Origin: Trypanosoma brucei
Taxonomy: Eukaryota
Reading direction: 5' to 3'
DNA length: 64,000 bases
NCBI GenBank assembly: GCA_000002445.1
Contig: CP000067.1
Span: 800,001-864,000, forward strand
Within the stretch, counting starts at the first letter, position 1; every line of letters begins with the position of its first letter. A program made the translations under genes and the position numbers. This document shows, piece after piece, positions 14,891 to 62,493 of this stretch. Below the pieces are notes generated by a model. It was not told the DNA's origin, did not search any database, and saw nothing but the letters and a program-made list of their open reading frames with translations.

Positions 14891-14919
<29 letters not shown>

Positions 14920-42803: not shown

Positions 42804-42822
42804 TCGAACCCACGCCCCTAGA

Positions 42823-42861
<39 letters not shown>

Positions 42862-42868: not shown

Positions 42869-42926
42869 ACCACCGCCGGTTTCGCGGGCGAATTTCTGTT
42901 ATAAACTTACTCCCGCAGTAAAAATA

Positions 42927-42999
42927 TGCGATCGGTGAGGCTCGAACTCACGACCTTGGGATTATGAAACCCACGCGCTGCCGACTGCGCCACGCTCGC
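42927..42999 (-). tRNA. tRNA-Met (anticodon CAT), elongator type (G1:C72, T54)
   Basis: Acceptor GCGAGCG/CGATCGC (one mismatch), anticodon stem with GGG:CCC, loop TTCATAA, T-arm GTGAG-TTCGAGC-CTCAC. The sequence is identical to the plus-strand copy at 60774-60846. Confidence 0.75.
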
Positions 43000-47179: not shown

Positions 47180-48109
47180 TTATACTGAAGACGCCATAAG
47201 ACTACTGAAAAGGGAATGGAGTTTGTCAGAGAGGGTGTCAATTCTGGAAGCACGTTCCGACAGCTTAGAAAGCATGACTTCAATTTCTGAGGATACATCA
47301 TTTATTTCTTTGAGGTGAGGAAGAAAAGACTTGAAAACTCTTGTTACGTTCACATCTTCTACCAGGCCGTATCTATTCGCAAGGACCTTGTCCCTACCCA
47401 AATTACCCCTTATTCCCCTGTGTTTGAAGATGTGTCCATGGGAAGTGGACACCGAATCAACTCTGTCAGCCAGTTTTCTTCCTCCAGTGCTATACGCCGT
47501 TCCATTGTGAAACCTCAAGTCGACGTGCTCGTCCCTGCTGCTGTCAAATTCGGTAATTATATCAGAAACGTCCCTTCCAGTTAAGGTTCCATCACACGTG
47601 ACTTGTATCCCATTATTCCTACAAAAGCCATGTGAATTATTCAGCATGCGCACTGCCTCCGATCCAACTCTGTACATCTCCTCCATTGTGGCTGCATACC
47701 TGGTTCCGGTTCTTACAACATCCATTGCCTTTTCCTCCATATAAGAAACACTAAGATCGAATTTCTTCCGTAAGTAGCTTTCACCTTCGAAAACACTCTC
47801 CATCTCATTTAATATTTCCTTCATTTTATCACCCTTCTCTTTTTTCATAAATGGTTTTCCGCGTAGGAATAATTCTCTCCACGCTGCATTCTGTTCTTCT
47901 GCCGAATACCTCTTCTCATACACCTCCTCTGCATGTACTCTAGTTCTTAAAAGTAGATCCTCCGTCACATTAATCATCCAATTAAGCTTCTTCACGACAC
48001 AGTCAATTTGTTTAAGGGTTGAGAGTGCTTCTTTATCAGTCTCCTGCATTCGAGAATCCACCAAGACAACAGAAATTGCAGCAAACACTACCGGAACTAT
48101 CCTCACCAT
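47180..48109 (-). CDS. array unit 1, 'A'-type secreted protein: signal peptide, ~310 aa, several N-glycosylation sequons, no C-terminal hydrophobic/GPI-type tail. The ORF opens at 48187.
   Basis: Paralog of 49729-50658, 52260-53204 and 54814-55740. Shares 'IDCVVKKLNWMINVTEDLLLRTRVHAEEVYEKRYSAEE'. Confidence 0.7.
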   Translation of the reverse strand: MVRIVPVVFAAISVVLVDSRMQETDKEALSTLKQIDCVVKKLNWMINVTEDLLLRTRVHAEEVYEKRYSAEEQNAAWRELFLRGKPFMKKEKGDKMKEILNEMESVFEGESYLRKKFDLSVSYMEEKAMDVVRTGTRYAATMEEMYRVGSEAVRMLNNSHGFCRNNGIQVTCDGTLTGRDVSDIITEFDSSRDEHVDLRFHNGTAYSTGGRKLADRVDSVSTSHGHIFKHRGIRGNLGRDKVLANRYGLVEDVNVTRVFKSFLPHLKEINDVSSEIEVMLSKLSERASRIDTLSDKLHSLFSSLMASSV

Positions 48110-48254
48110 CCCAAGCACTTGTACCACGTAAAAGAGAACTACAGAAAAATACACGTTCTTTAAGAGAAGCACCACACACACACACACGCTAGTAGCGTGA
48201 AACTTACAATTGTAAAAATATTTTAGAAAATTACTAACATTTCCCCACCTATTT

Positions 48255-49373
48255 CTAAAACGGTACCAAGACGCACAAAAGCAACGCTACCCATGGTAGA
48301 GTTTGTTGAAACTTCACCACACCATTATTATCTTCACTATAATTATCATTCCATGGAGAATCCTTCGCGTTTCCTAATGTTTCCGTAAGTTCATTGGTCC
48401 TTTCCTTCATTTTAACAATACTTCTGACTTTTTCTTCAAGTTCCAGAAGCAACCTATCGAGTACAGCTCGTTGAGCTGTGATGGAGGTGTTTCCTGCAGA
48501 TATCTTTATGACGCTGGCACTCAGCAGATCGATTAGTTCCTGAAATTCTTCTCCAATAGAACTGAAGTTTGCCATAAGTCTGTCATTCTGTGTGTAAAAG
48601 AGGCCACCAGAAAGTTCATTGATAAAGGGCTTCTTCCCTTTTGTGTACGGCTGGTATGTCGTCGTGATATAGCATCCATAAACAGCATCGGCACCTTGAT
48701 CTCCTGCATTTCCCATAGTCAAACTGAGTTCTGTATTAAGAGGATTTTCATACTCAGCAAGGCCACCCTCGCTGTGCTGTGGTGGCTCAACTGTGCAGTC
48801 TCTGGGAACACTGCCGCGTTTACCACCTCTTATGCAATCGCCAGTTGCCCCTCCATCCACCACAAGACAGCAATTTCCATATCCTAGTGCTGCATGGTGG
48901 AAAACTTCCACCATATCCTTAATCCAGTACGCGTACGAGTCAGACATATTCAGAAGGTTCCACGATGGCAACCTCATAGCCCGCAGTGAAGTATTCATGT
49001 TTTTAATGCTTTTTTTTAACTCCAATAGTGACTCTTCCGTTTCAATCAACAACTTTGCCACCTCATTCACTCTTTTACCTCCATCTGGAATTACTTCTTT
49101 CAGAACATCCACTAAAATTGTTTTTGTTCGAACACGTGCACTGTAGTGAGCTACAATTTTTTCACAGTCTTCCACTATTTTCTCCCCGAATTTCATATTA
49201 TGTGTCACATTGTTCCTCAGTTCCCTCAGCTTCCTAACTATACTACAGATGGCATTTGCATCACTTTGTGTCAGTGCCTTGCCCTTACCCTTTTCATCAC
49301 CCTCCGGTCCACTGTTAGCACATGCCACCACCAGAAAACTAAACATAATCACCACTCCTCCAACTGAAATCAT
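48255..49373 (-). CDS. array unit 1, 'B'-type surface glycoprotein: signal peptide 'MISVGGVVIMFSFLVVACA', ~375 aa, C-terminal hydrophobic GPI-type tail 'WVALLLCVLVPF'. The ORF opens at 49439.
   Basis: Paralog of the B copies at 50780, 53338 and 55871. Cys pairs such as 'CCLVVDGGATGDC' and many NxS/T sequons. Confidence 0.7.
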   Translation of the reverse strand: MISVGGVVIMFSFLVVACANSGPEGDEKGKGKALTQSDANAICSIVRKLRELRNNVTHNMKFGEKIVEDCEKIVAHYSARVRTKTILVDVLKEVIPDGGKRVNEVAKLLIETEESLLELKKSIKNMNTSLRAMRLPSWNLLNMSDSYAYWIKDMVEVFHHAALGYGNCCLVVDGGATGDCIRGGKRGSVPRDCTVEPPQHSEGGLAEYENPLNTELSLTMGNAGDQGADAVYGCYITTTYQPYTKGKKPFINELSGGLFYTQNDRLMANFSSIGEEFQELIDLLSASVIKISAGNTSITAQRAVLDRLLLELEEKVRSIVKMKERTNELTETLGNAKDSPWNDNYSEDNNGVVKFQQTLPWVALLLCVLVPF

Positions 49374-49728
49374 ATTATCACCTTCATACACAAAACAAGC
49401 AAAAAGGAGCTTTGAAAGCATGTGCTTCTTATTCCCCATATCATACTGTTATTCAAGTAAAGACAAATCTTCGCTGACACATTATCAAGGCACCCAAAAA
49501 CATGATATCGCAATGCGACCACACGTAGTCGGCCAGAAGCAGCAATAGCATATAAACACACATTCATATTTGCACATGCACATTCATTTCATGGTTATTG
49601 GACGGTTATTTTATGGTTATTTGCAAGAGGAGGGTGCAGTGAGAGTGTTAATACTGCTGACAGTTGTTGAGGCACAGGGTGTAAAAAGAGAAGGTGAGCG
49701 AAAGAGGCGTGTGTTCTCTTTTTCATTT

Positions 49729-50658
49729 TTAAGCTGTGGATATGGTGATGCTGCTGAAGATTGACTGGAGTTCCTTTTCGAGAGCGTCGATTCTGGAAGT
49801 TTGTTCCAACAGCTTGGAAGGCGTGGCTTCAATTTCGGAGATGATGTCGTTGATTTCTCTTAGAGGTGTGACAAACAACTTGAGAAGCTCTGATGCATTC
49901 ACCTTTTCTACCGAGCGAAGTTTATTCGTTTGGACGTTGTCTTTACCCAAATTGTTCCTTATTCCTCTGTGCTTGAGGACGAGCCCAAGGGAGGTGGACG
50001 CCGTATTGACTTTATCGGCCAATTTGTTTCCCCCATGGCTCTGAAACCCTCCACCGGTAAATGACAAGTCCATATAATCAGCGTCGCTGTCGAAATCGCC
50101 AACAATACCGGAAATATCTTTCCCAACAAAAGTTGTCCCGCACTTGACGTATGCACCATTATCCCCACAATAGCCATGCGACTTATTTACAATACATACT
50201 GCCTCTAATCCAACTCTGTACATCTCCACCATTGTGGCTGCATACCTGGTTCCGGTTCTTACAACATCCATCACCTTTTCCTCCAGATAAGAAACATTAA
50301 GGTTAAATTTCTTCCGTAAGTAGCTTTCACCTTCGAAAACACTCTCCATCTCATTTAATATTTCCTTCATTTTATCACCCTTCTGTTTTTTCATAAATGG
50401 TTTTACGTACACGAATAATCGTTCCCAGGCTGCGTATCTTTCCTCCGCCGAATACCTCTTCTCATACACCTCCTCTGCATGCACTCTAGTTCTTAAAAGT
50501 AGATCCTCCGTCACATTAATCATCCAATTAAGTTTCTTCACGACACAGTCAATTTGGTTAAGAGTTGTCAGTGACTCGTCGTTGTCCGCTTCTGGTGACA
50601 TGTTCTCTGCCAACACAACCCAAACTACAAAAAGCATCACTAGAAGTATCCTTATCAT
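49729..50658 (-). CDS. array unit 2, 'A'-type secreted protein (no GPI-type tail)
   Basis: Paralog of the A family. Signal peptide 'ILLVMLFVVWVVLA'. Confidence 0.7.
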   Translation of the reverse strand: MIRILLVMLFVVWVVLAENMSPEADNDESLTTLNQIDCVVKKLNWMINVTEDLLLRTRVHAEEVYEKRYSAEERYAAWERLFVYVKPFMKKQKGDKMKEILNEMESVFEGESYLRKKFNLNVSYLEEKVMDVVRTGTRYAATMVEMYRVGLEAVCIVNKSHGYCGDNGAYVKCGTTFVGKDISGIVGDFDSDADYMDLSFTGGGFQSHGGNKLADKVNTASTSLGLVLKHRGIRNNLGKDNVQTNKLRSVEKVNASELLKLFVTPLREINDIISEIEATPSKLLEQTSRIDALEKELQSIFSSITISTA

Positions 50659-50779
50659 CCTATAAACTTATTCCACACAAAATCGAACTACAGAAAATAA
50701 TGCCCCTTTCCGGAAAGAGACCACACCGCTAGTAACATGAAGCTGTTATTAAAAATATTTTATAAAATTACTCACTTTC

Positions 50780-51904
50780 TCAACTATTTCCAAATACAAA
50801 TGGGAGAAGAAGCAGAGCCACTCCTAGCAGAGTTTGCTGAACCCTTGCTACACTGTCACTCTCATTACTCTCTTTATCATTCCAATGAATATGTTTCACT
50901 ATTCCTAGTGTTTCTGTAAGTTCATTGGTTGTTTCCTTTTTTTCCAGAATATATCTGACTCTTTCTTCAAGTTCCAGAAGCAACCTATCGAGTACAGCTC
51001 GTTGAGCTGTGATGGAGGTGTTTCCTGCAGATATCTTTATGACGCTGGCACTCAGCAGATCGATTAGTTCCTGAAATTCTTCTCCAATAGAACTGAAGTT
51101 GGCAACGACGTTGTTATTCTGTGTGTAAAAGAGTCCTCCTGAAAGTTCATAAATGAGAGATTTCCTCCCCGAAGTGTAAGACTGATGTGTCGTCGTGATA
51201 TAGCAGCCATACTCCGAGTAGTTTCTGTAGTTTCCTGCATTTCCCATCGTTAAAGTGAGTCCTTCATCAAGAGGGTTTTTGTACTCAGCAAGGCTACCCT
51301 CGCTGCGCTGTAGCGGCTCAACTATGCAGTCTCTGGGAACACTGCCGCGTTTACCGTTCTTCATGCAATCGCCCGTTGCCCCTCCATCCACCACAAGACA
51401 ACAACTTAGAGTGCTAAGTGCCGCGTGGGCAAAACTCTCCACCGTGTCCTTAATCCAGTACGCGTACGAGTCAGACATATTCAGAAGGTTCCACGATGGC
51501 AACCTCATATATCCAAGCGACGAATGCATTTGCGCAACTAAATTTCTTAATTCATCTTTCAGTACTTTCATATCGCTCAAAAGCTTTATTATTTCAGTTA
51601 AAATTTCATCTTCTTCCGGAATTACTTCTTTCAAAACATCCACTAAAATTGTTTTTGTTTGAACACGTGCACTGTAGTGAGCTACAATTTTTTCACAGTC
51701 TTCCACTATTTTCTCCCCGAATTTCATATTATGTGTCACATTGTTCCTCAGTTCCCTCAGCTTCCTAACTATACTACAGATGGCATTTGCATCACTTTGT
51801 GTCAGTGCCTTGCCCTTACCCTTTTCATCACCCTCCGGTCCACTGTTAGCACATGCCACCACCAGAAAACTAAACATAATCACCACTCCTCCAACTGAAA
51901 TCAT
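50780..51904 (-). CDS. array unit 2, 'B'-type GPI-type surface glycoprotein. The ORF opens at 51970.
   Basis: Its N-terminal 100 aa are identical to B1 and B3. The C-terminal hydrophobic tail is 'LLGVALLLLPFVF'. Confidence 0.7.
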   Translation of the reverse strand: MISVGGVVIMFSFLVVACANSGPEGDEKGKGKALTQSDANAICSIVRKLRELRNNVTHNMKFGEKIVEDCEKIVAHYSARVQTKTILVDVLKEVIPEEDEILTEIIKLLSDMKVLKDELRNLVAQMHSSLGYMRLPSWNLLNMSDSYAYWIKDTVESFAHAALSTLSCCLVVDGGATGDCMKNGKRGSVPRDCIVEPLQRSEGSLAEYKNPLDEGLTLTMGNAGNYRNYSEYGCYITTTHQSYTSGRKSLIYELSGGLFYTQNNNVVANFSSIGEEFQELIDLLSASVIKISAGNTSITAQRAVLDRLLLELEERVRYILEKKETTNELTETLGIVKHIHWNDKESNESDSVARVQQTLLGVALLLLPFVFGNS

Positions 51905-52259
51905 ATTATCACCTTCATACACAAAACAAGCAAAAAGGAGCTTTGAAAGCATGTGCTTCTTATTCCCCATATCATACTGTTATTCAAGTAAAGACAAATC
52001 TTCGCTGACACATTATCAAGGCACCCAAAAACATGATATCGCAATGCGACCACACGTAGTCGGCCAGAAGCAGCAATAGCATATAAACACACATTCATAT
52101 TTGCACATGCATATTCATTTCGTGGTTATTGGACGGTTATTTTATGGTTATTTGCAAGAGGAGGGTGCAGTGAAAGTGTTAATACTGCTGACAGTTGTTG
52201 AGGCACAGGGTGTAAAAAGAGAAGGTGAGCGAAAGAGGCGTGTGTTCTCTTTTTCATTT

Positions 52260-53204
52260 TTAAGCTGTGGATATGGTGATGCTGCTGAAGATTGACTGGA
52301 GTTCCTTTTCGAGAGCGTCGATTCTGGAAGTTTGTTCCAACAGCTTGGAAGGTGTGGCTTCAATTTCGGAGATGATGTCGTTGATTTCTCTTAGAGGTGT
52401 AATAAAGGACTTGAATATCCTTGGTGAGTGAACAAACTCTACCAAGCCGTTTCCATTCGTGATGACCTTGGATTTACCCAAGTTACTTCTTATTCCTCTG
52501 TGCTTGATGATGTGCCCATAAGAGGTGGACGCCGCATTAACTTTATCGGCCAACTTGCTGCCTCCGTGTCCGCTCTGCGCTACTTTCTGTGTTTTCCTGT
52601 TTTGGAATGACAAGTCGATGTGTTCAGAGCTGTTTTCCAACACTCTAACGACGTCAGAAATGTCTTTCCCAACAAAAGTTGTCCCGCACTTGACGTATGC
52701 ACCATTATCCCCACAATAGCCATGCGACTTATTTACAATACATACTGCCTCTAATCCAACTCTGTACATCTCCACCATTGTGGCTGCATACCTGGTTCCG
52801 GTTCTTACAACATCCATCACCTTTTCCTCCAGATAAGAAACATTAAGGTTAAATTTCTTCCGTAAGTAGCTTTCACCTTCGAAAACACTCTCCATCTCAT
52901 TTAATATTTCCTTCATTTTATCACCCTTCTCTTTTCTCACAAAGTTTTTTACGTATACGTATAATTCTTTCCATGTTGTGAACCTTTCCTCTAGTGAATA
53001 CTTTTTCCCATACACCTCCTCTGCATGCACTCTAGTTCTTAAAAGTAGATCCTCCGTCACATTAATCATCCAATTAAGTTTCTTCACGACACAGTCGATT
53101 CTTTTTAGAGTAAAGCATGGTTCTCTATAACTCACCTGTGTTCTTCCAGCATATGGCAACACAAAGAAAACGACGGTAACGGTCACTTGACTTATCTTAA
53201 TCAT
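52260..53204 (-). CDS. array unit 3, 'A'-type secreted protein
   Basis: The central block and C-terminus are identical to A2. Confidence 0.7.
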   Translation of the reverse strand: MIKISQVTVTVVFFVLPYAGRTQVSYREPCFTLKRIDCVVKKLNWMINVTEDLLLRTRVHAEEVYGKKYSLEERFTTWKELYVYVKNFVRKEKGDKMKEILNEMESVFEGESYLRKKFNLNVSYLEEKVMDVVRTGTRYAATMVEMYRVGLEAVCIVNKSHGYCGDNGAYVKCGTTFVGKDISDVVRVLENSSEHIDLSFQNRKTQKVAQSGHGGSKLADKVNAASTSYGHIIKHRGIRSNLGKSKVITNGNGLVEFVHSPRIFKSFITPLREINDIISEIEATPSKLLEQTSRIDALEKELQSIFSSITISTA

Positions 53205-53337
53205 TCCACACTCTTACTTCAGGAAAAACTAAGCCAGTTCGAAGAGCGTACCTTTTTTGGAAGGGCACATCGCTTACACGCTAGTAGTAATAAGCTGTCA
53301 ATTGCACAAATATTTTAGAAAATTACACACTTTCCAC

Positions 53338-54459
53338 CTATTTCCAAAATACAGAAAAGACGAAAAGAAGCAGAGCCACTTCTGATAGATTTGGTTTCTT
53401 GCTCATACCATCACTCTCATAACTCTCATTATCATACCAGGAAACATCTTCTATGCTTCCTAATCTTTTCGTAACATCCATGACTCTCTTTTTCCTTTTA
53501 AGGATATCTCCAACTTCTTCCTCAAACCTCAGTAACAAGCTGTGGAGTATAGTTCGTTGACCTGTGATAGATGTGTTCCACGTGAAAATGTCGCTGATAC
53601 TAGTGTTCAGTTGATCGATTAGTTCCTGAAATTCTTTTCCAACAGAACTGAAGTTGGCAACGACGTTGTTATTCTGTGTGTAAAAGAGTCCTCCTGAAAG
53701 TTCATTTATAAAGGATTTCTTTGTATTAAAGCCACCTGCGGTGCTTGTGATGTAGCAACCGTAACTATTTGGGGTTTTACCGTAGTTTCCTGAATTTCCC
53801 ATAGTCAAACTGAGTTCTGTATTAAGAGGATTTTCATACTCAGCAAGGCTACCCTCGCTGTGCTGTGGTGGCTCAACTATGCAGTCTCTGGGAACTATTC
53901 CTCGTTTTCGGTCAAAGGGACAATCTTCCATTGACCCTCCATCTACCACAAGACAGCAACTCCCGGGGCTAAACGCTGCATAGTGAAAAAAATCCACCAT
54001 ATCCTTAATCCAGTACGCATATGAGTCCGATATATTTACAAGGTTCCACGATGGCAACCTCATAGCCCGCAGTGAAGCATTCATGCTCGTAATTGTCTTC
54101 CCTAATCCATCCCTCAGTTCCCCCATCTTCTCCAGGATTCTTTCCATCCCACTGAAACTTGACTTTTCTTCTGCCATTACTTTCTCCAACACGCTCACCA
54201 GCATTTTCTTAGACATAACTTTCGCGCCGTAGTAACTTTTCACGTCTTCAGCCTCGTCCACTATTTTCTCCCCGAATTTCATATTATGTGTCACATTGTT
54301 CCTCAGCTCCCTCAGCTTCCTAACTATACTACAGATGGCATTTGCATCACTTTGTGTCAGTGCCTTGCCCTTACCCTTTTCATCACCCTCCGGTCCACTG
54401 TTAGCACATGCCACCACCAGAAAACTAAACATAATCACCACTCCTCCAACTGAAATCAT
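53338..54459 (-). CDS. array unit 3, 'B'-type GPI-type surface glycoprotein. The ORF opens at 54525.
   Basis: Paralog of the B family. C-terminal tail 'VALLLFVFSVFW'. Confidence 0.7.
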   Translation of the reverse strand: MISVGGVVIMFSFLVVACANSGPEGDEKGKGKALTQSDANAICSIVRKLRELRNNVTHNMKFGEKIVDEAEDVKSYYGAKVMSKKMLVSVLEKVMAEEKSSFSGMERILEKMGELRDGLGKTITSMNASLRAMRLPSWNLVNISDSYAYWIKDMVDFFHYAAFSPGSCCLVVDGGSMEDCPFDRKRGIVPRDCIVEPPQHSEGSLAEYENPLNTELSLTMGNSGNYGKTPNSYGCYITSTAGGFNTKKSFINELSGGLFYTQNNNVVANFSSVGKEFQELIDQLNTSISDIFTWNTSITGQRTILHSLLLRFEEEVGDILKRKKRVMDVTKRLGSIEDVSWYDNESYESDGMSKKPNLSEVALLLFVFSVFWK

Positions 54460-54813
54460 ATTATCACCTTCATACACAAAACAAGCAAAAAGGAGCTTTG
54501 AAAGCATGTGCTTCTTATTCCCCATATCATACTGTTATTCAAGTAAAGACAAATCTTCGCTGACACATTATCAAGGCACCCAAAAACATGATATCGCAAT
54601 GCGACCACACGTAGTCGGCCAGAAGCAGCAATAGCATATAAACACACATTCATATTTGCACATGCATATTCATTTCATGGTTATTGGACGGTTATTTTAT
54701 GGTTATTTGCAAGAGGAGGGTGCAGTGAAAGTGTTAATACTGCTGATGCTTGTAATTAACATTGGCTCAAAAGGAATTATGTTCACGCATTTTTTTTATT
54801 ATACTGAAGACGC

Positions 54814-55740
54814 TCAAAGGCTGTTAAAGAGGGATTCAAGTTTCTTTTCGAGAATAGAAAACTTGTGAACACGTTCCGACAGCTTGGAAGGTGTGGCTTC
54901 AACTTCGGAGGTGAGATTACCGACTTCCCTTAGATGTGTGACAAACAACTTGAGAAGCTTCGCTGCACTCACGTGTTCTACCAAGTCGCGTTCATCCATG
55001 AGAACTCTGGCCTTTCCCAAACTATTACCTATTCCTCTGTGCTTGATGACACGTCCAAACGTGGTCGATACATTATGAACTCTATCAGCCAGCTTGTTTC
55101 CCCCTTTACTCCAGTGACCTCCGTTCTCAAACCTTAGATCTATATTTTCTTCAGTGCCGCTACCAAATTCAGCAACGATAATAGATAAATTTCCCCCAGA
55201 GAAGGCTCTCTCGCATGTAACATTGGCTTCATAAATTTCACAACTTTTTGGTACTTCTTTTCCAGAACGCACAGCTTCCAATCCAACTCTGTACATCTCC
55301 TCCATTGTGGCTGAATACCTGATACCGACTCTTACAATAGTCATCATTTTTTTTTCAAAGTAAGAAACATTAAGGTTAAAGTTTTTCTGCAAGTAGCTTT
55401 CAGTTTCAACGATTCTCTCCATCTCATTTAATATTTCCTTCATTTTATCACCCTTCTGTTTTTTCATAAATGGTTTTACGTACACGAATAATCGTTCCCA
55501 GGCTGCGTATCTTTCCTCCAGCAAATACTTCTTTTTATATACCTTTTCTGCATGCACTCTAGCTCTTAAAAGTAGATCCTCCGTCACATTAATCATCCAA
55601 TTAAGCTTCTTCACGACACAGTCAATTTGCTTAAGAGTTGAGAGAGATTCATCTCCGTGTGTTGTTTCCGCTATAACCCCCCAAAAAACAACTAGAACAA
55701 CTAAAGTGACAGCAAACACCACCTGAATCATCCTCATCAT
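54814..55740 (-). CDS. array unit 4, 'A'-type secreted protein
   Basis: Paralog of the A family. Shares 'ERYAAWERLFVYVKPFMKKQKGDKMKEILNEME' with A2. Confidence 0.7.
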   Translation of the reverse strand: MMRMIQVVFAVTLVVLVVFWGVIAETTHGDESLSTLKQIDCVVKKLNWMINVTEDLLLRARVHAEKVYKKKYLLEERYAAWERLFVYVKPFMKKQKGDKMKEILNEMERIVETESYLQKNFNLNVSYFEKKMMTIVRVGIRYSATMEEMYRVGLEAVRSGKEVPKSCEIYEANVTCERAFSGGNLSIIVAEFGSGTEENIDLRFENGGHWSKGGNKLADRVHNVSTTFGRVIKHRGIGNSLGKARVLMDERDLVEHVSAAKLLKLFVTHLREVGNLTSEVEATPSKLSERVHKFSILEKKLESLFNSL

Positions 55741-55870
55741 ATGTACCTATTCCACGAAAAGCGAATCACAGGAAAACGTGTAGCCTTTAGTAAGGGTACA
55801 ACACACGCGGTAGTAGAACATAATTGTCGTCTGTATAAATATTTTAGATCACTTACTTCTCCACATACTT

Positions 55871-56980
55871 TTAGAAGAATACCAGGAAGAATAGAAACAG
55901 ACTCACCCCTCGGAGGGTTGGTTGCGTCCCCATACCATCGCTATTCCCACTCTCGTTACCAAACCATGGAATGTTCTTCGTGCTACCTAATGCTTCCGTA
56001 ATTGCTTTGTTCTTTTCTTTCTCAAGGACATGTCTGATTTCTTTCTTCAGCTTAAGTAGCAAACCATCGAGTACAGCTCGTTGTCTTGTAATTGATGTGT
56101 TCCACGCGGAAAAATTGTTTGTGACTCTTCTTAGCGGATCGATTAGCTCCTGAAATTCCTTTCCAACAAAAGTGAAGTTGGCCATAAGTCTGTTATTCTG
56201 TGTGTAAAAGAGGCCACCAGAAAGTTCATAAATGAGAGATTTTTTCCCCCTGCTGTAAGTGTCATTTGTTGTTGTGATGAAGCAGCCACATAGCGGGTAT
56301 TCGCCTTCGTCCCCTGCATTTCCCATCGTTAAAGTGAGTCCTTCATCAAGAGGGTTTTTGTACTCAGCAAGGCCACCCTCGCTGCGCTGTGGCGGGTAAA
56401 TAGTGCAATCCGTGGGGACACTGCCGCGTTTACCACCTCTTATGCAATCTCCCGTTGCCCCTCCATCCACCACAAGACAACAATTCCCGCTTCCGAATGC
56501 TGTCTGGGCAAAGAGTTCTACCATATCTTTCACCCAGTACGCATACGAGTCAGACATATTTGTGAGGTTCCACATTTGCACACTCATGCACCCGAGTGAA
56601 GCGTTCACATTCGTAATACTTCTTTTCAACACCTGGATCGGCTCCTCCATATCACTCAGCAGCTTTCCCATCACGCTCAACTTTTCTCCTTCTTCAGGAA
56701 TTAGTTTTCCCAAAACCTTCACTAACATTTTCTTTGCTTCAACACGTGTGCTGTAGTAAGTAGCAACGTTTTCGCCATTGTCCACGATTTTTTCACCCAA
56801 TTTCATATTACGCGTCACGTTATTTGCCAACTCCCTCAACTGTTTGACCACATTGCAAATGGCATCTGCATCACTTTGCGTCAGCGCCTTGCCCTTACCC
56901 TCGATGTCACCCTCCGCTTGACCGTAAGCACATACCACCACTAAACAAGCCACAACCATTCCCCTTTTGAGTGGCATCAT
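55871..56980 (-). CDS. array unit 4, 'B'-type GPI-type surface glycoprotein, the most diverged B copy. The ORF opens at 57019.
   Basis: Signal peptide 'MMPLKRGMVVACLVVVCAYGQA' and C-terminal tail 'LRGVSLFLFFLVFF'. Confidence 0.7.
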   Translation of the reverse strand: MMPLKRGMVVACLVVVCAYGQAEGDIEGKGKALTQSDADAICNVVKQLRELANNVTRNMKLGEKIVDNGENVATYYSTRVEAKKMLVKVLGKLIPEEGEKLSVMGKLLSDMEEPIQVLKRSITNVNASLGCMSVQMWNLTNMSDSYAYWVKDMVELFAQTAFGSGNCCLVVDGGATGDCIRGGKRGSVPTDCTIYPPQRSEGGLAEYKNPLDEGLTLTMGNAGDEGEYPLCGCFITTTNDTYSRGKKSLIYELSGGLFYTQNNRLMANFTFVGKEFQELIDPLRRVTNNFSAWNTSITRQRAVLDGLLLKLKKEIRHVLEKEKNKAITEALGSTKNIPWFGNESGNSDGMGTQPTLRGVSLFLFFLVFF

Positions 56981-57092
56981 ATTATCCCCTCCTTCCAGAA
57001 ACGCAAGAAAGGCAAACAAATTGTGGATCCCTACGTGCGTATTCAGTCGGAGAACAGATCTTGATTACAATAAGTAGAACATTTGGGCTATA

Positions 57093-58325
57093 TTACGAAA
57101 ACACCAACAAAACAAAAATGCTCACCATTAAATCGAAATGGGCATCACCCTCCGTGTCAACATCCAAATTTTCTGCCTTGCCCCAGATATCTATGTTTCC
57201 TCCAAGTTTGTACTCAAGAAACATTTCCTCAGCGTCATGCTGTAAATCTTCCAACTCGTAAATATGGGAGTTTGCTTCACTTTCATACTTCTCCATGTCT
57301 TCCATGTTCTTTGTGGCATTGGTGAGACGATTGTGCCACGGTATGCCGCCATGGGATAAGGTGTGTTTGTAATTCACACACGTTGTTCCGGGTCTGTGGC
57401 CATCACATAGAAATGTTTCATTACTCGTATCATTCACGTGGCCAAATACGCCTTCCACCTGAAACTTGTCCTGCCTCATGTTAACAGATTTATCAAACTC
57501 CTCCAATGCAGCCTTTAACAGCTTTGAGTTGGATGCAATGTGCCTGTACACGCATCCGCGCTTTACCACTTGCCAAGCATCTTTGAGTGTCATTGATGAA
57601 TTAACCTCACATTTCTCTTCGGCCAAGGCGCACTCATTGCTCATGCCCGTCCACTTATTTTTTTCTGGTCGCCTCAAGTAGGTCCTGCAGGGCGAACTAT
57701 GCCCGTTGTAATAGTAGCTGCTGCTGTTCGCCTCGTCTTTCGCCTCTCCCACACATACACAAAAAAAGTCGTTAACAAGTGTTTTTCCAGTTTCATTACC
57801 GTTGCTTCCACAGCTTTCCAGAGCAGATTCATTGCTGTTGAACAGTAAACTTTTATTAGTTTCCATAATATCGTCAATGGGTCTGTTGGTCTTATGTGCC
57901 TCATCCACTAAATCACCATACACAGCTTTCATCATGCTCTCCTCAGCCTTACTGCTCTCCCGCATCGCCCTCTTTCTATTCCTGTCAATCTCTCCCTTCA
58001 CCGCTTTTGCTCTTTTGTATAGTTTCTCAATCCCTTCACGCGCCTTTTGGCTCACAGAAGTTTCTTTTCCGTTCGCTCTCGCCTCACTCACCATTACCTC
58101 GAACCTCTTCATAATCTCATCTTCCTTCTCACGGTTTCTAAATTCCGGCCTTGGCACCTTTGCTTGAGTGATCCTGTAAATCTTACAAAGGATCTCAAAC
58201 TCTCCGGTGTTGTGTTGGTAATCAGTAATGTTGAAAACACCCTTCTGTTGACCCTGACTTCCTCTTATTGATCCCCATAAAAGAGCAACCAACAATAGCA
58301 CCCCAGCGCAACCACGTCTCTTCAT
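57093..58325 (-). CDS. VSG-like / ESAG-like GPI-type surface glycoprotein (410 aa) with a signal peptide and C-terminal hydrophobic tail. Contains the motif 'NDFFCVCVGE'.
   Basis: N-terminal 'GVLLLVALLWGSIRG', C-terminal 'LMVSIFVLLVFS', a Cys-rich central region, and many sequons. Confidence 0.65.
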   Translation of the reverse strand: MKRRGCAGVLLLVALLWGSIRGSQGQQKGVFNITDYQHNTGEFEILCKIYRITQAKVPRPEFRNREKEDEIMKRFEVMVSEARANGKETSVSQKAREGIEKLYKRAKAVKGEIDRNRKRAMRESSKAEESMMKAVYGDLVDEAHKTNRPIDDIMETNKSLLFNSNESALESCGSNGNETGKTLVNDFFCVCVGEAKDEANSSSYYYNGHSSPCRTYLRRPEKNKWTGMSNECALAEEKCEVNSSMTLKDAWQVVKRGCVYRHIASNSKLLKAALEEFDKSVNMRQDKFQVEGVFGHVNDTSNETFLCDGHRPGTTCVNYKHTLSHGGIPWHNRLTNATKNMEDMEKYESEANSHIYELEDLQHDAEEMFLEYKLGGNIDIWGKAENLDVDTEGDAHFDLMVSIFVLLVFS

Positions 58326-58435
58326 AATTTCCTATTACAACCAAATGGGAAGCAAATATCAACAACATGCCACGCAGCAGCAGTCATTTAGGAAAATGCG
58401 GAAGCTGGGAAAAGCTAAAAATATAACACGGAAAG

Positions 58436-59716
58436 TTAAGCGACAAAGGCAGTCAGCGCCATCATTGCTAAAACAGTCAAAGATATTGAAAAGCCGGCCC
58501 CATCCTCTTCCACCTCGTTCACTTCACTCTCCATCATTAAGTGTTCCAAATTCAAGTTAATCTTTGCTGCTGCACTTTTCATATTCTCCGCTAATTTCCA
58601 CAGCCTTCCAAGCAAAACCTTTGCCTCCTTATTGTGCCTTTCCATTTCCACCAGGTACTTCTCCGCATCCAGCAACCTCAGCTGCCACTCAATTCCCTTC
58701 TGCGTCAGAAGTCTATACGCATAATTCACGCACATTTGGTCATTCTTCCCCGTGCATATGTTTTCGCTGCGGTCAAAAACACCCGTATGTATTTTTTTTG
58801 CTCTCCCAAACACGTAGGTCCGAAATCCCTCCGATTCTTTCATGTTCATGATTATATTCTCCCTCTGCCTTCCAAGAAGCTTATTGAACTCCCTCACTGC
58901 ATCTTGGATTTTTTCTGGCGTTATCAATTTCAAATTTTCATTTTTTGGACAGGCTTCATCCTTTATCTTAAACCAGCCGGGGCCAAAAGCCACATCACTT
59001 CCATCATACGACACATTTTTCCACAGTTTCTTTCTACCCGGCCCCTTGATACTTTTGTGACAAACGGTCTCATTATTCTCTTCTCCAACGCACAAGCAAA
59101 AAAAGTCCCCCACGAGCGAACGCCCAGCCATGGCATCCTCAGTCGAGGGATGATACCCAGCTCCGCACGTTTCCTCTGCGGAGTTTCCTATTAAAGTGTC
59201 TCCGGTGTGCACCGCAAACTTTTCAAACTCCTCCTTCTCCATCAGCCTCCCAGCATTCGCCCCATAAACGACTTGCGCCATTCTTTCGAGTGCAAATTTC
59301 CTTGACACATTCGCCAGGCGCCGTTCCTCTCTTATTCCACTCACGAGTATGGTTGCCTTTTCCGCTAGTTTTATTAACTTCTCATGTGTTACCCTCCACC
59401 GAATAATATCATTTGCACGATGCATACTCATCTTAGCGGCCCCACTATTGTTAACTGTTCCTTTCCTCCTTTCCATAGCTTCTTTATACAAGGAATCCTT
59501 CACGTATGTCGCTTTCACAAACATCTGTAGCCTGTCGATGATACTCGTTAGATTCGCAGGCTCTTCCATTATTTTCTCTGGTTCCCCCTCCGCCAACCTC
59601 AATATCTCACACATTTGGTTGAACTCTTTTTCATTCACTAACTTTGAATCCTCTCCACACACCAAGTGGAAGGCACCAAAGGCCGTTAACAAGAATGTCA
59701 CTATGATTTCCTTCAT
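58436..59716 (-). CDS. second VSG-like GPI-type surface glycoprotein (about 426 aa from the 'MKEIIVTFLLTAFGAF' start). Contains 'GDFFCLCVGE'. The ORF opens at 59767.
   Basis: Signal peptide and C-terminal 'ISLTVLAMMALTAFVA'. Shares a Cys motif with the neighbouring gene. Confidence 0.65.
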   Translation of the reverse strand: MKEIIVTFLLTAFGAFHLVCGEDSKLVNEKEFNQMCEILRLAEGEPEKIMEEPANLTSIIDRLQMFVKATYVKDSLYKEAMERRKGTVNNSGAAKMSMHRANDIIRWRVTHEKLIKLAEKATILVSGIREERRLANVSRKFALERMAQVVYGANAGRLMEKEEFEKFAVHTGDTLIGNSAEETCGAGYHPSTEDAMAGRSLVGDFFCLCVGEENNETVCHKSIKGPGRKKLWKNVSYDGSDVAFGPGWFKIKDEACPKNENLKLITPEKIQDAVREFNKLLGRQRENIIMNMKESEGFRTYVFGRAKKIHTGVFDRSENICTGKNDQMCVNYAYRLLTQKGIEWQLRLLDAEKYLVEMERHNKEAKVLLGRLWKLAENMKSAAAKINLNLEHLMMESEVNEVEEDGAGFSISLTVLAMMALTAFVA

Positions 59717-60614
59717 TATCAAAGCCCTGCTACAAACAAAAAGAAAGTAAAGGCACCAACAAGACAATCCTCCAACCAGAAGATGCTCCTAATCGCAGAT
59801 AAAAGAGATCACTTTTGTAACGCAAGAAAAGCATCCAAAGCCACCAACCGAGCATCCCAACCGTCATACAAACGTATTTCCGAATGGCCAAACCACCGTA
59901 ATTTTAAAAATCTCTCACACATTCACGATTGAACACTATACGTGATAAAAAAAGCGTGCTCTGATTTAAGCCTTCCCAATGCATTGCTGAGCCCACGCAC
60001 GGCCCCTCTCAACCTTAACGCGCAGTTTTTCACGGAGTGAAACCAACCAAAAAAGCAAGCAGGTCACAGCTTTTTTAATGTCTTCACGCGCAGGCAGCTT
60101 ATATATAATTACTGCGGCAAAGAGAGGAACAGAGTAATGGAAAGTATTTAAAGGATCACAGACAAAAAGAAGCAGAACAAACCTGAACGTTATTCCGTGG
60201 TTACTGCCTTGTGGGGAAAGAGGGCCGCGGCATGGGAAAGCGCTTTAATTCAGGTCTCGGCGCCACACGGAACTGCAGAGGCTCACGCGCCAATGAGTGG
60301 CGACAAACCGACTGACAGCGATATCACACTTCTGAACTTCCTTTTCCTTTGTGGTGAGTGCCCTGAGGCTCATCCTCCGTTTTTCTCCTGAAGCTTCCCC
60401 GAATCAATTTTATCCTCCTTAACAGCGATGAAGCAGCGGAGTTATGCGCAATAGACAACCGCTGCGGGAGCGGCGAAACATTGAAATGTCCTCGACAGAG
60501 GATACTGGCACGGCAGCTGCAACGGTCGGCAAGTTCCAAAACTCATCGTCTTGGACCGTTCTCTCGAGTAACGTGCCCGTCGCCGCATCAAGCACGTTGA
60601 CCTCTAAAAAAAGT

Positions 60615-60686
60615 TTCCGGTGCCGGGGATCGAACCCGGGTCTAGCGGGTGAGAGCCGCTTGTTCTAGCCACTATACCACACCGGA
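60615..60686 (-). tRNA. tRNA-Glu (anticodon CTC)
   Basis: Acceptor TCCGGTG/CACCGGA, anticodon stem AGCGG/CCGCT with loop CTCTCAC, T-arm CCGGG-TTCGATC-CCCGG, and T7 after the 3' end. Confidence 0.8.
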
Positions 60687-60773
60687 GATGCATCTCGTCA
60701 AATCTACACTTACGTTCTAAACCATAAGTTGTGATGCAGACGTTCATAATTTACTATCGAGCGGCCCCGCACC

Positions 60774-60846
60774 GCGAGCGTGGCGCAGTCGGCAGCGCGT
60801 GGGTTTCATAATCCCAAGGTCGTGAGTTCGAGCCTCACCGATCGCA
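60774..60846 (+). tRNA. tRNA-Met (anticodon CAT), elongator type, arranged divergently to tRNA-Glu
   Basis: Same 73-nt sequence as 42927-42999 on the opposite strand. Followed by a T6 terminator. Confidence 0.75.
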
Positions 60847-60889
60847 CTTTTTTGATTTCCACCTGCGAGTTTTTCAGCAGGAGAAAACC

Positions 60890-60970
60890 CGTCGACAGCA
60901 GGGTTCGAACCTGCGCGCGAGATCGCATTTGATTTCAAGTCAAACCCCGTAACCACTTGGGTATGTCGAC
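60890..60970 (-). tRNA. tRNA-Ser (anticodon TGA), long variable arm
   Basis: Perfect 7-bp acceptor GTCGACA/TGTCGAC, discriminator G, anticodon stem TTTGA/TCAAA with loop CTTGAAA, 13-nt variable arm, T-arm GCAGG-TTCGAAC-CCTGC. Confidence 0.75.
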
Positions 60971-61011
60971 AACGGTTTACCCGACTATTTCAAACTAATA
61001 AAAAAACAGAT

Positions 61012-61025
61012 CCACCACCGTCAGT
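61012..61025 (+). pseudogene. 3'-terminal ~14 nt fragment of tRNA-Leu(TAG) (acceptor 3' strand plus part of the T-stem). It sits at the inner boundary of the right inverted-repeat arm.
   Basis: 'CCACCACCGTCAG' matches the 3' end of the intact tRNA-Leu at 42789-42868. The homology then stops. Confidence 0.55.
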
Positions 61026-61086
61026 CGTTTTCGTGTTTAAATCAATTGAACTGAGGAAATGATACAAAAATTGCCGGAGCGGGCAA

Positions 61087-61160
61087 GCGCTGATGGTCTA
61101 GGTGGTTATGACGTCGCTTTAACACGGCGAAGGTCTCGGGTTCGAGTCCCGATCGGCGTA
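61087..61160 (+). tRNA. tRNA-Val (anticodon AAC), the copy in the right inverted-repeat arm
   Basis: Identical to the reverse complement of 42652-42725 and followed by TTTT. Confidence 0.8.
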
Positions 61161-62493
61161 GGTTTTCGTCATTTCTCCGTTTCCCTCAATTTTGCTGCCG
61201 TGAAATTTTAATGTTCGGATGAAAGGGGAAGAGGGATTGAGATTGTGCGTGTGTGTGTGGCCTGAGGTGGTGACATTTGGGACGGAAACGAATGAAAGGA
61301 AAAGGGGTCGCTGTTTTAGTTACTAATGAAGCAGCATATCCATTATTCATTACATCGAGAGTAACATCCCCATCAACTAAAACGTGAGTCAGTGGACGGC
61401 TCGTCTCTTTTTGCTCTTTGCCTTGCTTTGCTTTTTCTTTTATTGGGTTGGTTGAGAAAGCAATGCTAAAATACCAGAAAGGCAGGGAGAGGATGACCCC
61501 CATACCAACAGAGTTCAAACATCACCTCACGAGGCTGCAATGTGTGGCGGGGTGTTGCGGTGCTGCTGCAAACATTCCATCAAATGCCCCACTGGTCATT
61601 ATAAAAGAGGAAGGTATTGGACCCGTGCTGTCATGGGAAACTGGAACTGGGCTGGGAAAGGAACAGTGACAGGAGGAAAAATAAGGGAAAACAAATGTGT
61701 GCAATATGTCCTTTTTTTTCATGGTTTTGGAGAAGAAGAGTGTTTGTGATAATACTGGAACCGTTGCACCACACCAAAGGGACACCGGCAGCAATATTAC
61801 ATGCTACGAAGGCTTTGCACACGCCTTGCGCTGTTCTAAACGCTACGCGCGCCCTTGACTTCAGGGAAGGGAATGGAAGGGGAAAATGAAGAAACGATCT
61901 TCCCAAAGTCAATTAAGCGTTACGCCCTCGGTCGCATCCATGAGCCTTTCACTCCAATTGCCAACAACAACGGCTAACAACATCCTCATTACGACATTGT
62001 ATTGCTTTGCCTTTTAGGGGAGAGAGTTGATTTTCTTCCCGCGTGCGCGAATAATGCACATCCGCGCGGAGGCATCTTTACCGTTCCAAAAGCAAAAAAA
62101 AAAGATGAGTAAAAGAGGAGACGAAAAGAATAGAAGCAGAAAAGTGAAGTTGGGGTGTGAAAAGGTGCTATGAACAAACTTCATCCACTTCAGCTGGCGC
62201 AGCGTGAAAAAATTTACATTCACCCCACGTGACTTCTCACTTTCTGTTGGCCAAATTATTGCATCCGGTTAGAAAGAAACCAGGTGTATCGCACACACGC
62301 GCTCGCACAAGAAACACGCAATCACCAACACGCGGCTACGCACACGTCACTCACGAAGAGAGCATCAGCTATTCAAAAAAAAAATAATAATAACAATAAT
62401 AATTAAATGGAGGATACGAACTTGAAGTCCACCGCCAGATCCCATCCTTTTAGTACCCAACCACACACACGGATTCACAAGCACACACTCTCC

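What the first reader, a model, noticed from the sequence alone, without database searches (positions are those of the whole stretch)
61012..61025. The inverted-repeat boundary falls inside a tRNA-Leu gene, leaving a 3' tRNA fragment. This suggests a tRNA gene was the recombination breakpoint.
The left arm ends within the intact tRNA-Leu(TAG) at 42789-42868. The right arm ends with only the last ~14 nt of the same tRNA, 'CCACCACCGTCAG'. After that, the right side continues into an unrelated spacer and a tRNA-Ser gene. The duplication-inversion that created the repeat therefore broke within a tRNA gene. tRNA genes mark replication-fork barriers, chromatin boundaries and Pol II termination sites in trypanosomes, so they are plausible fragile sites.
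Basis: seen in the sequence. Interest (0 to 1): 0.5.

Follow-up and report, generated by a model that had tools for sequence, protein, structure and literature searches.

The report
tRNA-Leu scar at inverted-repeat edge
A 12-base remnant of a leucine tRNA gene marks the inner edge of a 722-bp inverted repeat in Trypanosoma brucei chromosome 4; it is a genuine but ordinary rearrangement scar in a reshuffled tRNA cluster, and copying between the two repeat arms keeps it intact.

Summary
The window is T. brucei TREU927 chromosome 4. A 722-bp inverted repeat (42080-42800 / 61732-61012, 99.2%) has a duplicated tRNA-Val(AAC) unit at its core. It reaches exactly 12 nt into the 3' end of the only tRNA-Leu(TAG) gene (42789-42868, minus strand). 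The right arm therefore carries an orphan CCACCACCGTCA (61012-61023) followed by Leu's own terminator.

Outgroups (T. cruzi, T. rangeli, T. theileri, T. vivax, Leishmania) show one ancestral tRNA cluster between a UBC gene and an FtsH-like gene. T. brucei has inverted its Ser-Met-Glu-Met block and split it with 17.6 kb of Trypanozoon-only surface-protein genes. It has also gained an inverted Val copy beside Leu.

T. b. gambiense has the same repeat with identical boundaries. The arms evolve in concert (32 columns against 0), so the high identity reflects gene conversion, not recency, and conversion preserves the fragment.

One rearrangement endpoint does lie within tRNA-Leu sequence. Whether it was the original duplication breakpoint, the end of a conversion tract or the end of a deletion cannot be resolved. 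The "fragile tRNA" idea is unnecessary, because 12-48% of the ancestral cluster is tRNA sequence. This is a modest finding: a new example of a known kind.

The parts
61012..61023 (+). Orphan 3' fragment of tRNA-Leu(TAG). It is 12 nt long: 4 nt of the T stem, the 7-nt 3' acceptor strand and the discriminator A. It has no A or B box, so it is non-functional.
   Evidence: It is identical to the reverse complement of 42789-42800 and forms the inner end of the right repeat arm. The 12-mer is unique to the Leu gene and this site. It is conserved at the same position in T. b. gambiense.
61024..61086 (+). Spacer 'd' in the right arm. It holds the native Leu 3' flank with the Pol III terminator (GTCGTTTTCGTG), followed by the 5' flank of Val.
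   Evidence: It is identical to the left-arm spacer 42726-42788. The TTTTCG motif directly 3' of Leu is shared with the Leu genes of T. rangeli, T. cruzi, T. theileri and L. donovani.
61087..61160 (+). tRNA-Val(AAC), right copy. This is the ancestral position, next to FtsH.
   Evidence: Val+ lies next to FtsH- in T. theileri, T. vivax and L. donovani.
61012..61732 (+). Right arm of the 722-bp inverted repeat.
42080..42800 (-). Left arm of the inverted repeat. The Val part is the derived copy; no outgroup has Val between UBC and Leu.
   Evidence: The distance from the UBC stop to the Leu 3' end is 1542 nt. Without the 709 nt of arm outside Leu it is 833 nt, against 574-790 nt in the outgroups.
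42652..42725 (-). tRNA-Val(AAC), left (derived) copy.
   Evidence: T. brucei has exactly two Val-AAC genes, both on chromosome 4 (PMC2695483).
42789..42868 (-). Intact tRNA-Leu(TAG), the only such gene in T. brucei. Its last 12 nt belong to the left arm.
   Evidence: One Leu-TAG gene is listed in Table 1 of PMC2695483.
42927..42999 (-). tRNA-Met, left copy. With the right copy it forms an 80-nt inverted repeat nested inside the Val arms.
60615..60970 (.). Right-hand remainder of the ancestral cluster: Glu(CTC)- at 60615-60686, Met+ at 60774-60846 and Ser(TGA)- at 60890-60970.
   Evidence: Together with the left Met-, this block is the exact inversion of T. cruzi Ser+ Met- Glu+ Met+.
60972..61011 (.). 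A 40-nt unique spacer between the Ser 5' end and the Leu fragment. The novel junction lies at 61011/61012.
   Evidence: It has no similarity to Leu or to the left side.
43001..60614 (-). A 17.6-kb lineage-specific insertion that splits the cluster. It holds four ~2.5-kb tandem units of paired ~310-aa and ~395-aa genes ('ESAG11-related') and two ORFs with a VSG_B domain.
   Evidence: T. theileri has only 3.7 kb between UBC and FtsH.

Best explanation
The 12-nt piece is a true relic of tRNA-Leu(UAG) sequence at the edge of a maintained inverted repeat.

Shown. The ancestral locus was one tRNA cluster in a convergent strand-switch region (UBC -> Leu- Ser+ Met- Glu Met+ Val+ <- FtsH). In the T. 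brucei lineage the Ser-Met-Glu-Met block is inverted. An inverted extra copy of the tRNA-Val unit sits just 3' of Leu. Trypanozoon-specific genes totalling 17.6 kb split the cluster. The two Val-bearing arms exchange sequence by gene conversion. That exchange keeps them 98-99% identical within each subspecies while the subspecies differ by about 6%.

Inferred. The repeat originally ended somewhere in the Leu-Val spacer. A break between Ser and Val on the right was then repaired from the left arm by the RAD51-dependent 'one-sided' pathway known in T. brucei. That pathway invades within the Val homology, copies outward through the spacer and Leu terminator and 12 nt into Leu, and then joins to the Ser-side end by microhomology-mediated end joining. 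This extended the repeat into Leu.

Why the fragment survives. The left copy of these 12 nt is part of an essential single-copy tRNA gene. Continued conversion therefore keeps re-imposing the selected sequence on the right copy, so the fragment has not decayed.

Consequence. The fragment has no A or B box and no function of its own. Recombination between the arms would invert the 18.2-kb interior and rebuild an intact Leu gene at the other end.
For: - Identity of the locus: the UBC protein is 100% identical to the T. brucei TREU927 protein on a 1.59-Mb contig.
- Repeat anatomy and sharp boundaries.
- Ancestral single cluster: T. theileri, three T. cruzi assemblies and T. rangeli all start with Leu- after UBC. 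Val+ abuts FtsH in T. theileri, T. vivax and L. donovani.
- T. vivax has Ser- directly followed by Val+, with no significant Leu remnant between them. This favours a right side that never held a Leu gene.
- Concerted evolution: 32 columns, including a 6-nt and a 4-nt indel, have 927L=927R differing from TbgL=TbgR. No column shows the orthologous pattern, and the boundaries are identical in both subspecies.
- All six differences between the TREU927 arms lie in the outer 142 bp and the inner 580 bp are identical (P about 6e-5). This fits recent conversion tracts that run to the inner boundary.
- The spacer next to the fragment is Leu's native terminator and flank.
- Leu-TAG is single-copy, and the two Val-AAC copies are both on chromosome 4 (PMC2695483).
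- T. brucei repairs breaks by homologous recombination and microhomology-mediated joining. It performs RAD51-dependent one-sided conversions that copy 28-1084 bp (PMC3045614).
Against: - The direction of the transfer and the number of steps are inferred, not observed.
- No pre-event sequence is available, because the T. congolense locus and the UBC side of T. vivax could not be fetched.
- No microhomology can be demonstrated at 61011/61012.
- The model needs an earlier, separate event that placed the Val copy beside Leu.
- A former second Leu gene on the right, later truncated, explains the same end state.
- A one-step staggered-break inversion also reproduces the 'intact gene on one side, fragment on the other' pattern, if the ancestor had Leu+ just upstream of Val+.
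Confidence: 0.45

Rival explanations
1. Truncated duplicate. The inverted duplication once covered the whole Leu gene (Leu+ spacer Val+ on the right, Val- spacer Leu- on the left). The redundant right copy then lost its 5' 68 nt, and possibly some upstream spacer, through a microhomology-mediated deletion. That left the 12-nt stump, so the repeat boundary is a deletion endpoint.
For: - Leu's own terminator and flank follow the fragment on the right.
- The Ser-/Leu+ divergent pairing exists in Leishmania.
- Leu-TAG is single-copy in all TriTryps, so a second copy would be dispensable.
- Deletions by microhomology-mediated joining, averaging 284 bp, are the norm in T. brucei.
Against: - T. vivax has Ser- Val+ with nothing Leu-like between them, so an extra loss must be assumed.
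- No further Leu-like sequence is found in the 40-nt spacer.
- No genome with two Leu-TAG copies was seen.
Confidence: 0.3
2. One-step inversion with a staggered break, the Drosophila-type signature. An ancestor ordered UBC -> Ser+ Met- Glu+ Met+ Leu+ Val+ <- FtsH suffered an inversion. Its right-hand break was staggered by about 720 nt, from 12 nt before the Leu 3' end to 572 nt past Val. Fill-in duplicated that stretch in inverted orientation. This rebuilt Leu on the left and left the 12-nt fragment on the right.
For: - A single event reproduces the observed order exactly: Val- Leu- Met- Glu- Met+ Ser- [Leu fragment] Val+.
- The interior is inverted relative to T. cruzi.
- Inversions flanked by inverted duplications of 46 bp to 1.9 kb, taken from only one breakpoint, are well documented (PMC1885836).
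- The model correctly requires the right arm to be the original, which matches Val+ next to FtsH in all outgroups.
Against: - The required ancestor, with Leu+ between Met+ and Val+, is seen in no outgroup.
- The Met2-Val spacers of T. cruzi and T. theileri hold no Leu remnant.
- A staggered-break inversion starting from the T. cruzi-like order predicts Leu- Val- Met-, not the observed Val- Leu- Met-.
- T. brucei is not known to have classical non-homologous end joining.
Confidence: 0.12
3. The break fell in tRNA-Leu because tRNA genes are intrinsically fragile in trypanosomes, acting as replication-fork barriers or chromatin boundaries.
For: - One junction lies inside tRNA-derived sequence.
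- The whole locus, a tRNA cluster in a convergent strand-switch region, has been rearranged repeatedly in different lineages. Glu is flipped between T. cruzi and T. theileri, and the Leu/Ser pair is flipped in Leishmania.
Against: - tRNA sequence occupies 12-48% of the ancestral cluster or intergenic region, so a hit by chance is unremarkable.
- The outer repeat boundary and both edges of the 17.6-kb insertion lie outside tRNA genes.
- This is a single case with no replication or breakage data.
- The endpoint may be the end of a conversion tract or a deletion rather than a primary break.
Confidence: 0.1
4. Chance similarity or an assembly artefact.
For: None found.
Against: - The 12-mer is contiguous with 710 further matching bases.
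- It is unique in the window apart from the Leu gene itself.
- The same structure is present in the independent DAL972 assembly, and its left half in T. b. equiperdum, each with private differences between arms.
Confidence: 0.01

Closest known systems
Inversion-associated inverted duplications from staggered breaks (Ranz et al. 2007, PLoS Biol, PMC1885836)
   Same: An ancestrally single-copy sequence (tRNA-Val plus flank, 722 bp) is present as inverted copies at the two ends of a block that is inverted relative to outgroups. The size lies within the reported 46 bp-1.9 kb range. One side holds an intact gene and the other a gene fragment.
   Different: The copy does not abut the inverted block in the way the model predicts from the T. 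cruzi-like order, because Leu lies in between. The arms are kept near-identical by conversion instead of decaying (Drosophila copies average about 88% identity). The organism is not known to have classical end joining.
RAD51-dependent one-sided gene conversion with microhomology-mediated joining in T. brucei (Glover, Jun & Horn 2011, PMC3045614)
   Same: This is the same organism. The tracts start in homology, run into non-homologous sequence and end at a microhomology join. They copy 28-1084 bp, which covers the 75-720 nt needed here.
   Different: That work used experimentally induced breaks. Here the event is only inferred from the end product, and the microhomology cannot be identified.
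Concerted evolution of inverted repeats by gene conversion (for example palindrome arms, chloroplast inverted repeats)
   Same: Paralogous arms within a genome are more alike than orthologous arms between lineages (32 columns against 0). The boundaries are stable across lineages.
   Different: The repeat is small (722 bp) and chromosome-internal. It flanks a tRNA cluster and an 18-kb gene array.
Syntenic tRNA clusters of the TriTryps (Padilla-Mejia et al. 2009, PMC2695483: L. major chr34-I / T. brucei chr04-III / T. cruzi contig Tc4886)
   Same: This appears to be the same locus. The L. donovani orthologue lies on a 1.85-Mb contig, and the two Val-AAC genes are Tb_04_tRNA_Val_1 and Tb_04_tRNA_Val_2. 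The tRNA genes themselves are already annotated.
   Different: The parts of that paper I read do not describe the inverted repeat, the Leu fragment, the concerted evolution or the ancestral single-cluster reconstruction. I could not see its figures.
Bacterial genomic islands integrated at tRNA 3' ends (attL/attR)
   Same: On the surface the pattern is similar. Lineage-specific DNA (18 kb) has an intact tRNA at one end and a short 3' fragment of the same tRNA at the other.
   Different: The fragment is inverted relative to the gene, not direct. The repeat extends 709 nt outside the tRNA. There is no integrase or mobile-element ORF. The interior also contains ancestral tRNA genes, and the organism is a eukaryote.

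Membership tests
Truncated tRNA gene / tRNA-derived relic | Contiguous identity to part of a bona fide tRNA gene plus its native flank | tested here: met
   12/12 nt match the Leu 3' end, and the identical terminator and 62-nt spacer follow.
Truncated tRNA gene / tRNA-derived relic | Lacks the internal promoter (A and B boxes) and the cloverleaf | tested here: met
   The fragment starts after the GGTTCGAACCC B box. Neither ARAGORN nor Rfam calls a tRNA there.
Inverted repeat under concerted evolution (gene conversion) | Arms within a genome are more similar to each other than to their orthologous arms in a sister lineage | tested here: met
   927L-927R are 99.2% identical and TbgL-TbgR 98.1%, against 93.9-94.5% for all 927-Tbg pairs. 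There are 32 concerted columns and 0 orthologous-pattern columns.
Inverted repeat under concerted evolution (gene conversion) | Same repeat boundaries in both lineages, implying a single origin | tested here: met
   The outer boundary (CTCCAAAACC) and inner boundary (GGTGGTGG|) are identical in TREU927 and DAL972.
Staggered-break inversion with inverted duplication (Ranz 2007) | The duplicated sequence is single-copy and adjacent to the breakpoint in the ancestral arrangement | tested here: met
   The outgroups have one Val, next to the Met+ end of the block and to FtsH.
Staggered-break inversion with inverted duplication (Ranz 2007) | The segment between the duplicates is inverted relative to the ancestor | tested here: met
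   T. brucei Met- Glu- Met+ Ser- is the reverse complement of T. cruzi Ser+ Met- Glu+ Met+.
Staggered-break inversion with inverted duplication (Ranz 2007) | The derived order equals A-B-D'-C'-B'-D-E when computed from an observed ancestral order | tested here: not met
   The T. cruzi-like order predicts Leu- Val- Met-..., whereas Val- Leu- Met-... is observed. The pattern fits only a hypothetical ancestor with Leu+ upstream of Val+, and no remnant of that was found.
One-sided HR/MMEJ gene conversion (Glover 2011) | Homology at one end of the copied tract and a microhomology junction at the other | tested here: inconclusive
   Homology is present (the Val arm), and the junction at 61011/61012 is sharp. 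The microhomology cannot be identified without the pre-event sequence.
One-sided HR/MMEJ gene conversion (Glover 2011) | RAD51 dependence | not testable with these tools
   This needs genetics.
tRNA-targeted integration (att-site-like island or tRNA-targeting retroelement) | Direct repeat of the tRNA 3' end flanking the inserted DNA, plus an integrase or reverse transcriptase | tested here: not met
   The fragment is inverted relative to the gene. No integrase or reverse-transcriptase domain is found in the interior ORFs.
tRNA genes as fragile sites / fork barriers | Breakpoints enriched in tRNA gene bodies beyond their share of the sequence | not tested
   Only one locus was examined. tRNA occupies 12-48% of the ancestral cluster, so one hit carries no information.

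The most novel reading that the evidence does not exclude
The 722-bp arms form a recombination-competent switch. Both arms end in the same 12 nt of Leu, so homologous recombination between them would flip the 18.2-kb cassette (four ESAG11-related gene pairs plus two VSG-related genes) and still rebuild an intact, essential tRNA-Leu. The flip would move the cassette from the FtsH-side transcription unit to the UBC-side unit. The Leu fragment would then be a selected feature that makes the inversion viable. Natural populations, or different life-cycle stages, would carry both orientations.
Probability: 0.05. Interest if true: 0.6.

Novelty: new member of a known kind. Interest (0 to 1): 0.3.

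Why it matters
This is a clean, datable example of how trypanosome tRNA clusters at convergent strand-switch regions get reshuffled. They acquire lineage-specific surface-protein arrays.

The locus also shows that short chromosome-internal inverted repeats in T. brucei are homogenised by gene conversion. High arm identity therefore cannot be read as recency. The repeat explains why T. brucei has two tRNA-Val(AAC) genes where T. cruzi has one per haplotype. It also gives a concrete, testable prediction of an invertible 18-kb cassette.

It does not by itself show that tRNA genes are fragile sites.

Tried and rejected
1. Leu remnant in the T. vivax Ser-Val spacer. CCCACCAGCGGTGCA looked suggestive, but the local-alignment score is matched by 86% of shuffles, so I rejected it.
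2. Leu remnants in the T. cruzi and T. theileri Met2-Val spacers, and in the T. brucei 40-nt and 58-nt spacers. None is significant.
3. Using T. vivax to decide which arm is ancestral. Only the Ser and Val genes align and all spacers are saturated, so the test is uninformative beyond gene order.
4. Homology beyond either end of the repeat. There is none apart from the tRNA-Met genes.
5. A bacterial-style att-site island or a retroelement insertion. The fragment is inverted, and the interior ORFs have no integrase or reverse-transcriptase domain.
6. A staggered-break inversion starting directly from the T. cruzi-like order. It predicts the wrong Leu/Val order on the left.
7. Fetching the TREU927 locus itself by exact protein look-up failed.
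8. Identifying the array proteins. They have no Pfam or PDB relatives, only Trypanozoon homologues named 'ESAG11-related'.
9. Small tandem repeats between 41 and 62.6 kb. None was found.

Full report
**What the window is.** The UBC-type E2 protein encoded at 40584-41246 is 100% identical to a T. brucei brucei TREU927 protein on a 1,590,432-bp contig, which is chromosome 4. Its neighbours are a class-3 lipase-like gene and, on the far side, a mitochondrial FtsH/AFG3-like protease at 62494 to beyond 64000 on the minus strand.

**Checking the observation.**
- ARAGORN and Rfam agree on seven tRNA genes. On the left are Val(AAC)- 42652-42725, Leu(TAG)- 42789-42868 and Met- 42927-42999. On the right are Glu(CTC)- 60615-60686, Met+ 60774-60846, Ser(TGA)- 60890-60970 and Val(AAC)+ 61087-61160.
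- A gapped self-comparison finds one inverted repeat, 42080-42800 against 61732-61012, with 716/722 identical positions. It also finds a separate 80-nt match between the two Met genes.
- Nothing else is shared beyond either end of the repeat.
- The inner end lies 12 nt inside Leu, so 61012-61023 reads CCACCACCGTCA: T-stem CCAC, acceptor CACCGTC and discriminator A. Leu's own 3' flank follows (GTCGTTTTCGTG), then a 62-nt spacer and Val.
- The 12-mer is otherwise unique in the window.
The repeat is small, essentially a tRNA-Val unit plus 572 bp downstream.

**Ancestral arrangement.** Orthologous loci were fetched through the UBC and FtsH proteins.
- T. theileri has UBC+ and FtsH- only 3.7 kb apart, with one cluster between them: Leu- Ser+ Met- Glu- Met+ Val+.
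- Three T. cruzi assemblies and T. rangeli have UBC+ followed by Leu- Ser+ Met- Glu+ (Met+ Val+).
- T. vivax has Ser- Val+ FtsH-.
- L. donovani, in the same orientation, has Ser- Leu+ Met- Ile- Val+ FtsH-.
- So Leu- next to UBC and Val+ next to FtsH are ancestral positions. The left Val- of T. brucei is the derived copy.
- The distance from the UBC stop to the Leu 3' end is 1542 nt in T. brucei. Without the 709 arm bases it is 833 nt, close to the 574-790 nt of the outgroups.
- T. brucei's Met- ... Glu- Met+ Ser- is the exact reverse complement of T. cruzi's Ser+ Met- Glu+ Met+. The Ser-/Val+ adjacency this creates is shared with T. vivax, so it predates T. brucei.
- The 17.6 kb between Met- and Glu- is lineage-specific. 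It holds four ~2.5-kb tandem units of paired ~310-aa and ~395-aa genes whose only homologues are Trypanozoon 'ESAG11-related' proteins, plus two ORFs with a VSG_B domain.

**Age and maintenance of the repeat.**
- A composite of two overlapping T. b. gambiense DAL972 loci shows the same repeat (720 bp, 98.1%) with identical outer and inner boundaries and the same 12-nt fragment.
- T. b. equiperdum has the same left side.
- In a four-arm alignment, 32 columns (22 substitutions plus a 6-nt and a 4-nt indel) have both TREU927 arms sharing one state and both DAL972 arms sharing another. No column shows the left=left, right=right pattern expected for independently evolving copies.
- Arm identity is 98-99% within a genome but about 94% between subspecies for every pairing.
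- The repeat therefore predates the brucei/gambiense split and is homogenised by gene conversion. Its near-identity says nothing about recency.
- In TREU927 all six differences lie in the outer 142 bp (P about 6e-5). This suggests recent tracts covering the inner 580 bp up to the Leu boundary.
- Leu(TAG) is single-copy in T. brucei and Val(AAC) has two copies, both on chromosome 4 (PMC2695483 Table 1 and text). The left 12 nt are therefore under purifying selection, and conversion transmits that constraint to the orphan copy. This explains how a functionless 12-mer stays perfect.

**How the endpoint got into Leu.** Every history I could construct needs one endpoint 12 nt from the Leu 3' end, but they differ in what kind of endpoint it is.
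- (a) Conversion overshoot. A break between Ser and Val was repaired from the left arm by the RAD51-dependent one-sided pathway documented in T. brucei, which combines homologous recombination and microhomology-mediated joining and copies tracts of 28-1084 bp (PMC3045614). Copying ran through the spacer and 12 nt into Leu.
- (b) Deleted duplicate. A second, complete Leu on the right was later truncated.
- (c) One-step staggered-break inversion of the Drosophila type (PMC1885836). It reproduces the observed order exactly, but only from an ancestor with Leu+ just upstream of Val+, which no outgroup shows. From the T. cruzi-like order it predicts Leu- Val- rather than Val- Leu-.
- I prefer (a). 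T. vivax shows Ser- Val+ with nothing Leu-like between them, no two-Leu stage is seen anywhere, and conversion between the arms is demonstrably active.
- (b) remains a serious rival.

**The fragile-site idea.**
- tRNA sequence is 48% of the T. cruzi cluster, 21% of the T. theileri cluster and 12% of the T. theileri UBC-FtsH intergenic region.
- The other junctions at this locus lie outside tRNA genes: the outer repeat boundary and both edges of the 17.6-kb insertion.
- One hit inside a tRNA therefore carries no evidence for special fragility.
- The cluster as a whole is rearrangement-prone. Glu lies between inverted Met genes (80-121 nt repeats in the outgroups) and has opposite orientation in T. 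cruzi and T. theileri. The Leu/Ser pair is flipped in Leishmania.

**Comparison with the literature.** The tRNA genes and the synteny of this cluster (L. major chr34-I / T. brucei chr04-III / T. cruzi Tc4886) are published. A 2025 T. cruzi tRNA paper reports general T. cruzi-T. brucei tRNA synteny. I found no description of the repeat, its concerted evolution or the Leu fragment.

**A consequence worth testing.** Both arms end in the same 12 nt of Leu. Recombination between them would therefore invert the 18.2-kb interior and regenerate an intact Leu next to the right arm. All three assemblies have the same orientation, so there is no evidence that this happens.

**Verdict.** This is an ordinary kind of genomic scar with a neat concerted-evolution twist, of modest interest.

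Noticed in passing
window 47231-56941 (minus-strand ORFs 47180-57019): Four ~2.5-kb tandem units, 74-99% identical to one another. Each holds a ~310-aa ORF without a hydrophobic tail and a ~395-aa ORF with a hydrophobic C-terminus that looks like a GPI-anchor signal. Neither has a Pfam or PDB relative, and the only homologues are Trypanozoon proteins named 'ESAG11-related'. Copy number differs in T. b. gambiense, where the UBC-FtsH interval is 16.4 kb against 21.2 kb.
   Followed up: partly
window 57093-58325 and 58436-59767 (minus strand): Two chromosome-internal ORFs with a VSG_B (trypanosomal VSG) domain sit just inside the right tRNA cluster. T. b. gambiense has one (426 aa) at the same place.
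   Followed up: partly
window 42920-42999 / 60774-60853; L002 11518-11590 / 11825-11897; L001 11866-11938 / 12270-12342: The two tRNA-Met genes form an 80-121-nt inverted repeat in every species. In the outgroups it brackets only tRNA-Glu, whose orientation differs between T. cruzi and T. rangeli (+) and T. theileri (-). This fits flipping mediated by the Met repeat.
   Followed up: partly
window 42792-42800 (minus strand) and 42867-42875 (plus strand): The Leu acceptor stem, extended by two flank bases, gives a 9-nt inverted repeat (CCACCACCG) at the two ends of the Leu gene. The first 9 nt of the orphan fragment therefore also match the Leu 5' edge as a direct repeat. This is a possible substrate for template switching, but I did not evaluate it further.
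   Followed up: no
window 42093-42221 versus 61591-61719: All six differences between the TREU927 arms lie in the outer 142 bp, and the inner 580 bp are identical. In T. b. gambiense the 14 differences are spread along the arm. T. b. equiperdum's left arm is a mosaic of 927-like and gambiense-like states at repeat positions 367-425.
   Followed up: partly
outside the window (TREU927 protein AAZ10937, 167 aa; T. b. gambiense CBH10646): A second, shorter UBC protein on the same chromosome falls in the same 90%-identity cluster as the UBC at 40584-41246. By accession order it lies about 16 genes beyond FtsH. This hints at a further segmental duplication nearby.
   Followed up: no
L001 9515-9587: T. 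theileri has an additional tRNA-Met(+) upstream of UBC, between an FHA-domain gene and UBC. It is absent at that position in the other species.
   Followed up: no
window 6441-6502, 14882-14918, 27773-27805: (AT)n microsatellites that register as perfect palindromes in self-alignment. They are trivial low-complexity sequence.
   Followed up: yes
L002-L004 beyond the tRNA cluster (about 12.2-20 kb): In T. cruzi the FtsH gene does not follow the cluster within 8 kb. Instead there are unannotated ORFs, a weak reverse-transcriptase hit (L003 15302-15727) and a GP63 (Peptidase_M8) gene. The same strand-switch region has therefore been independently invaded by lineage-specific sequence.
   Followed up: no
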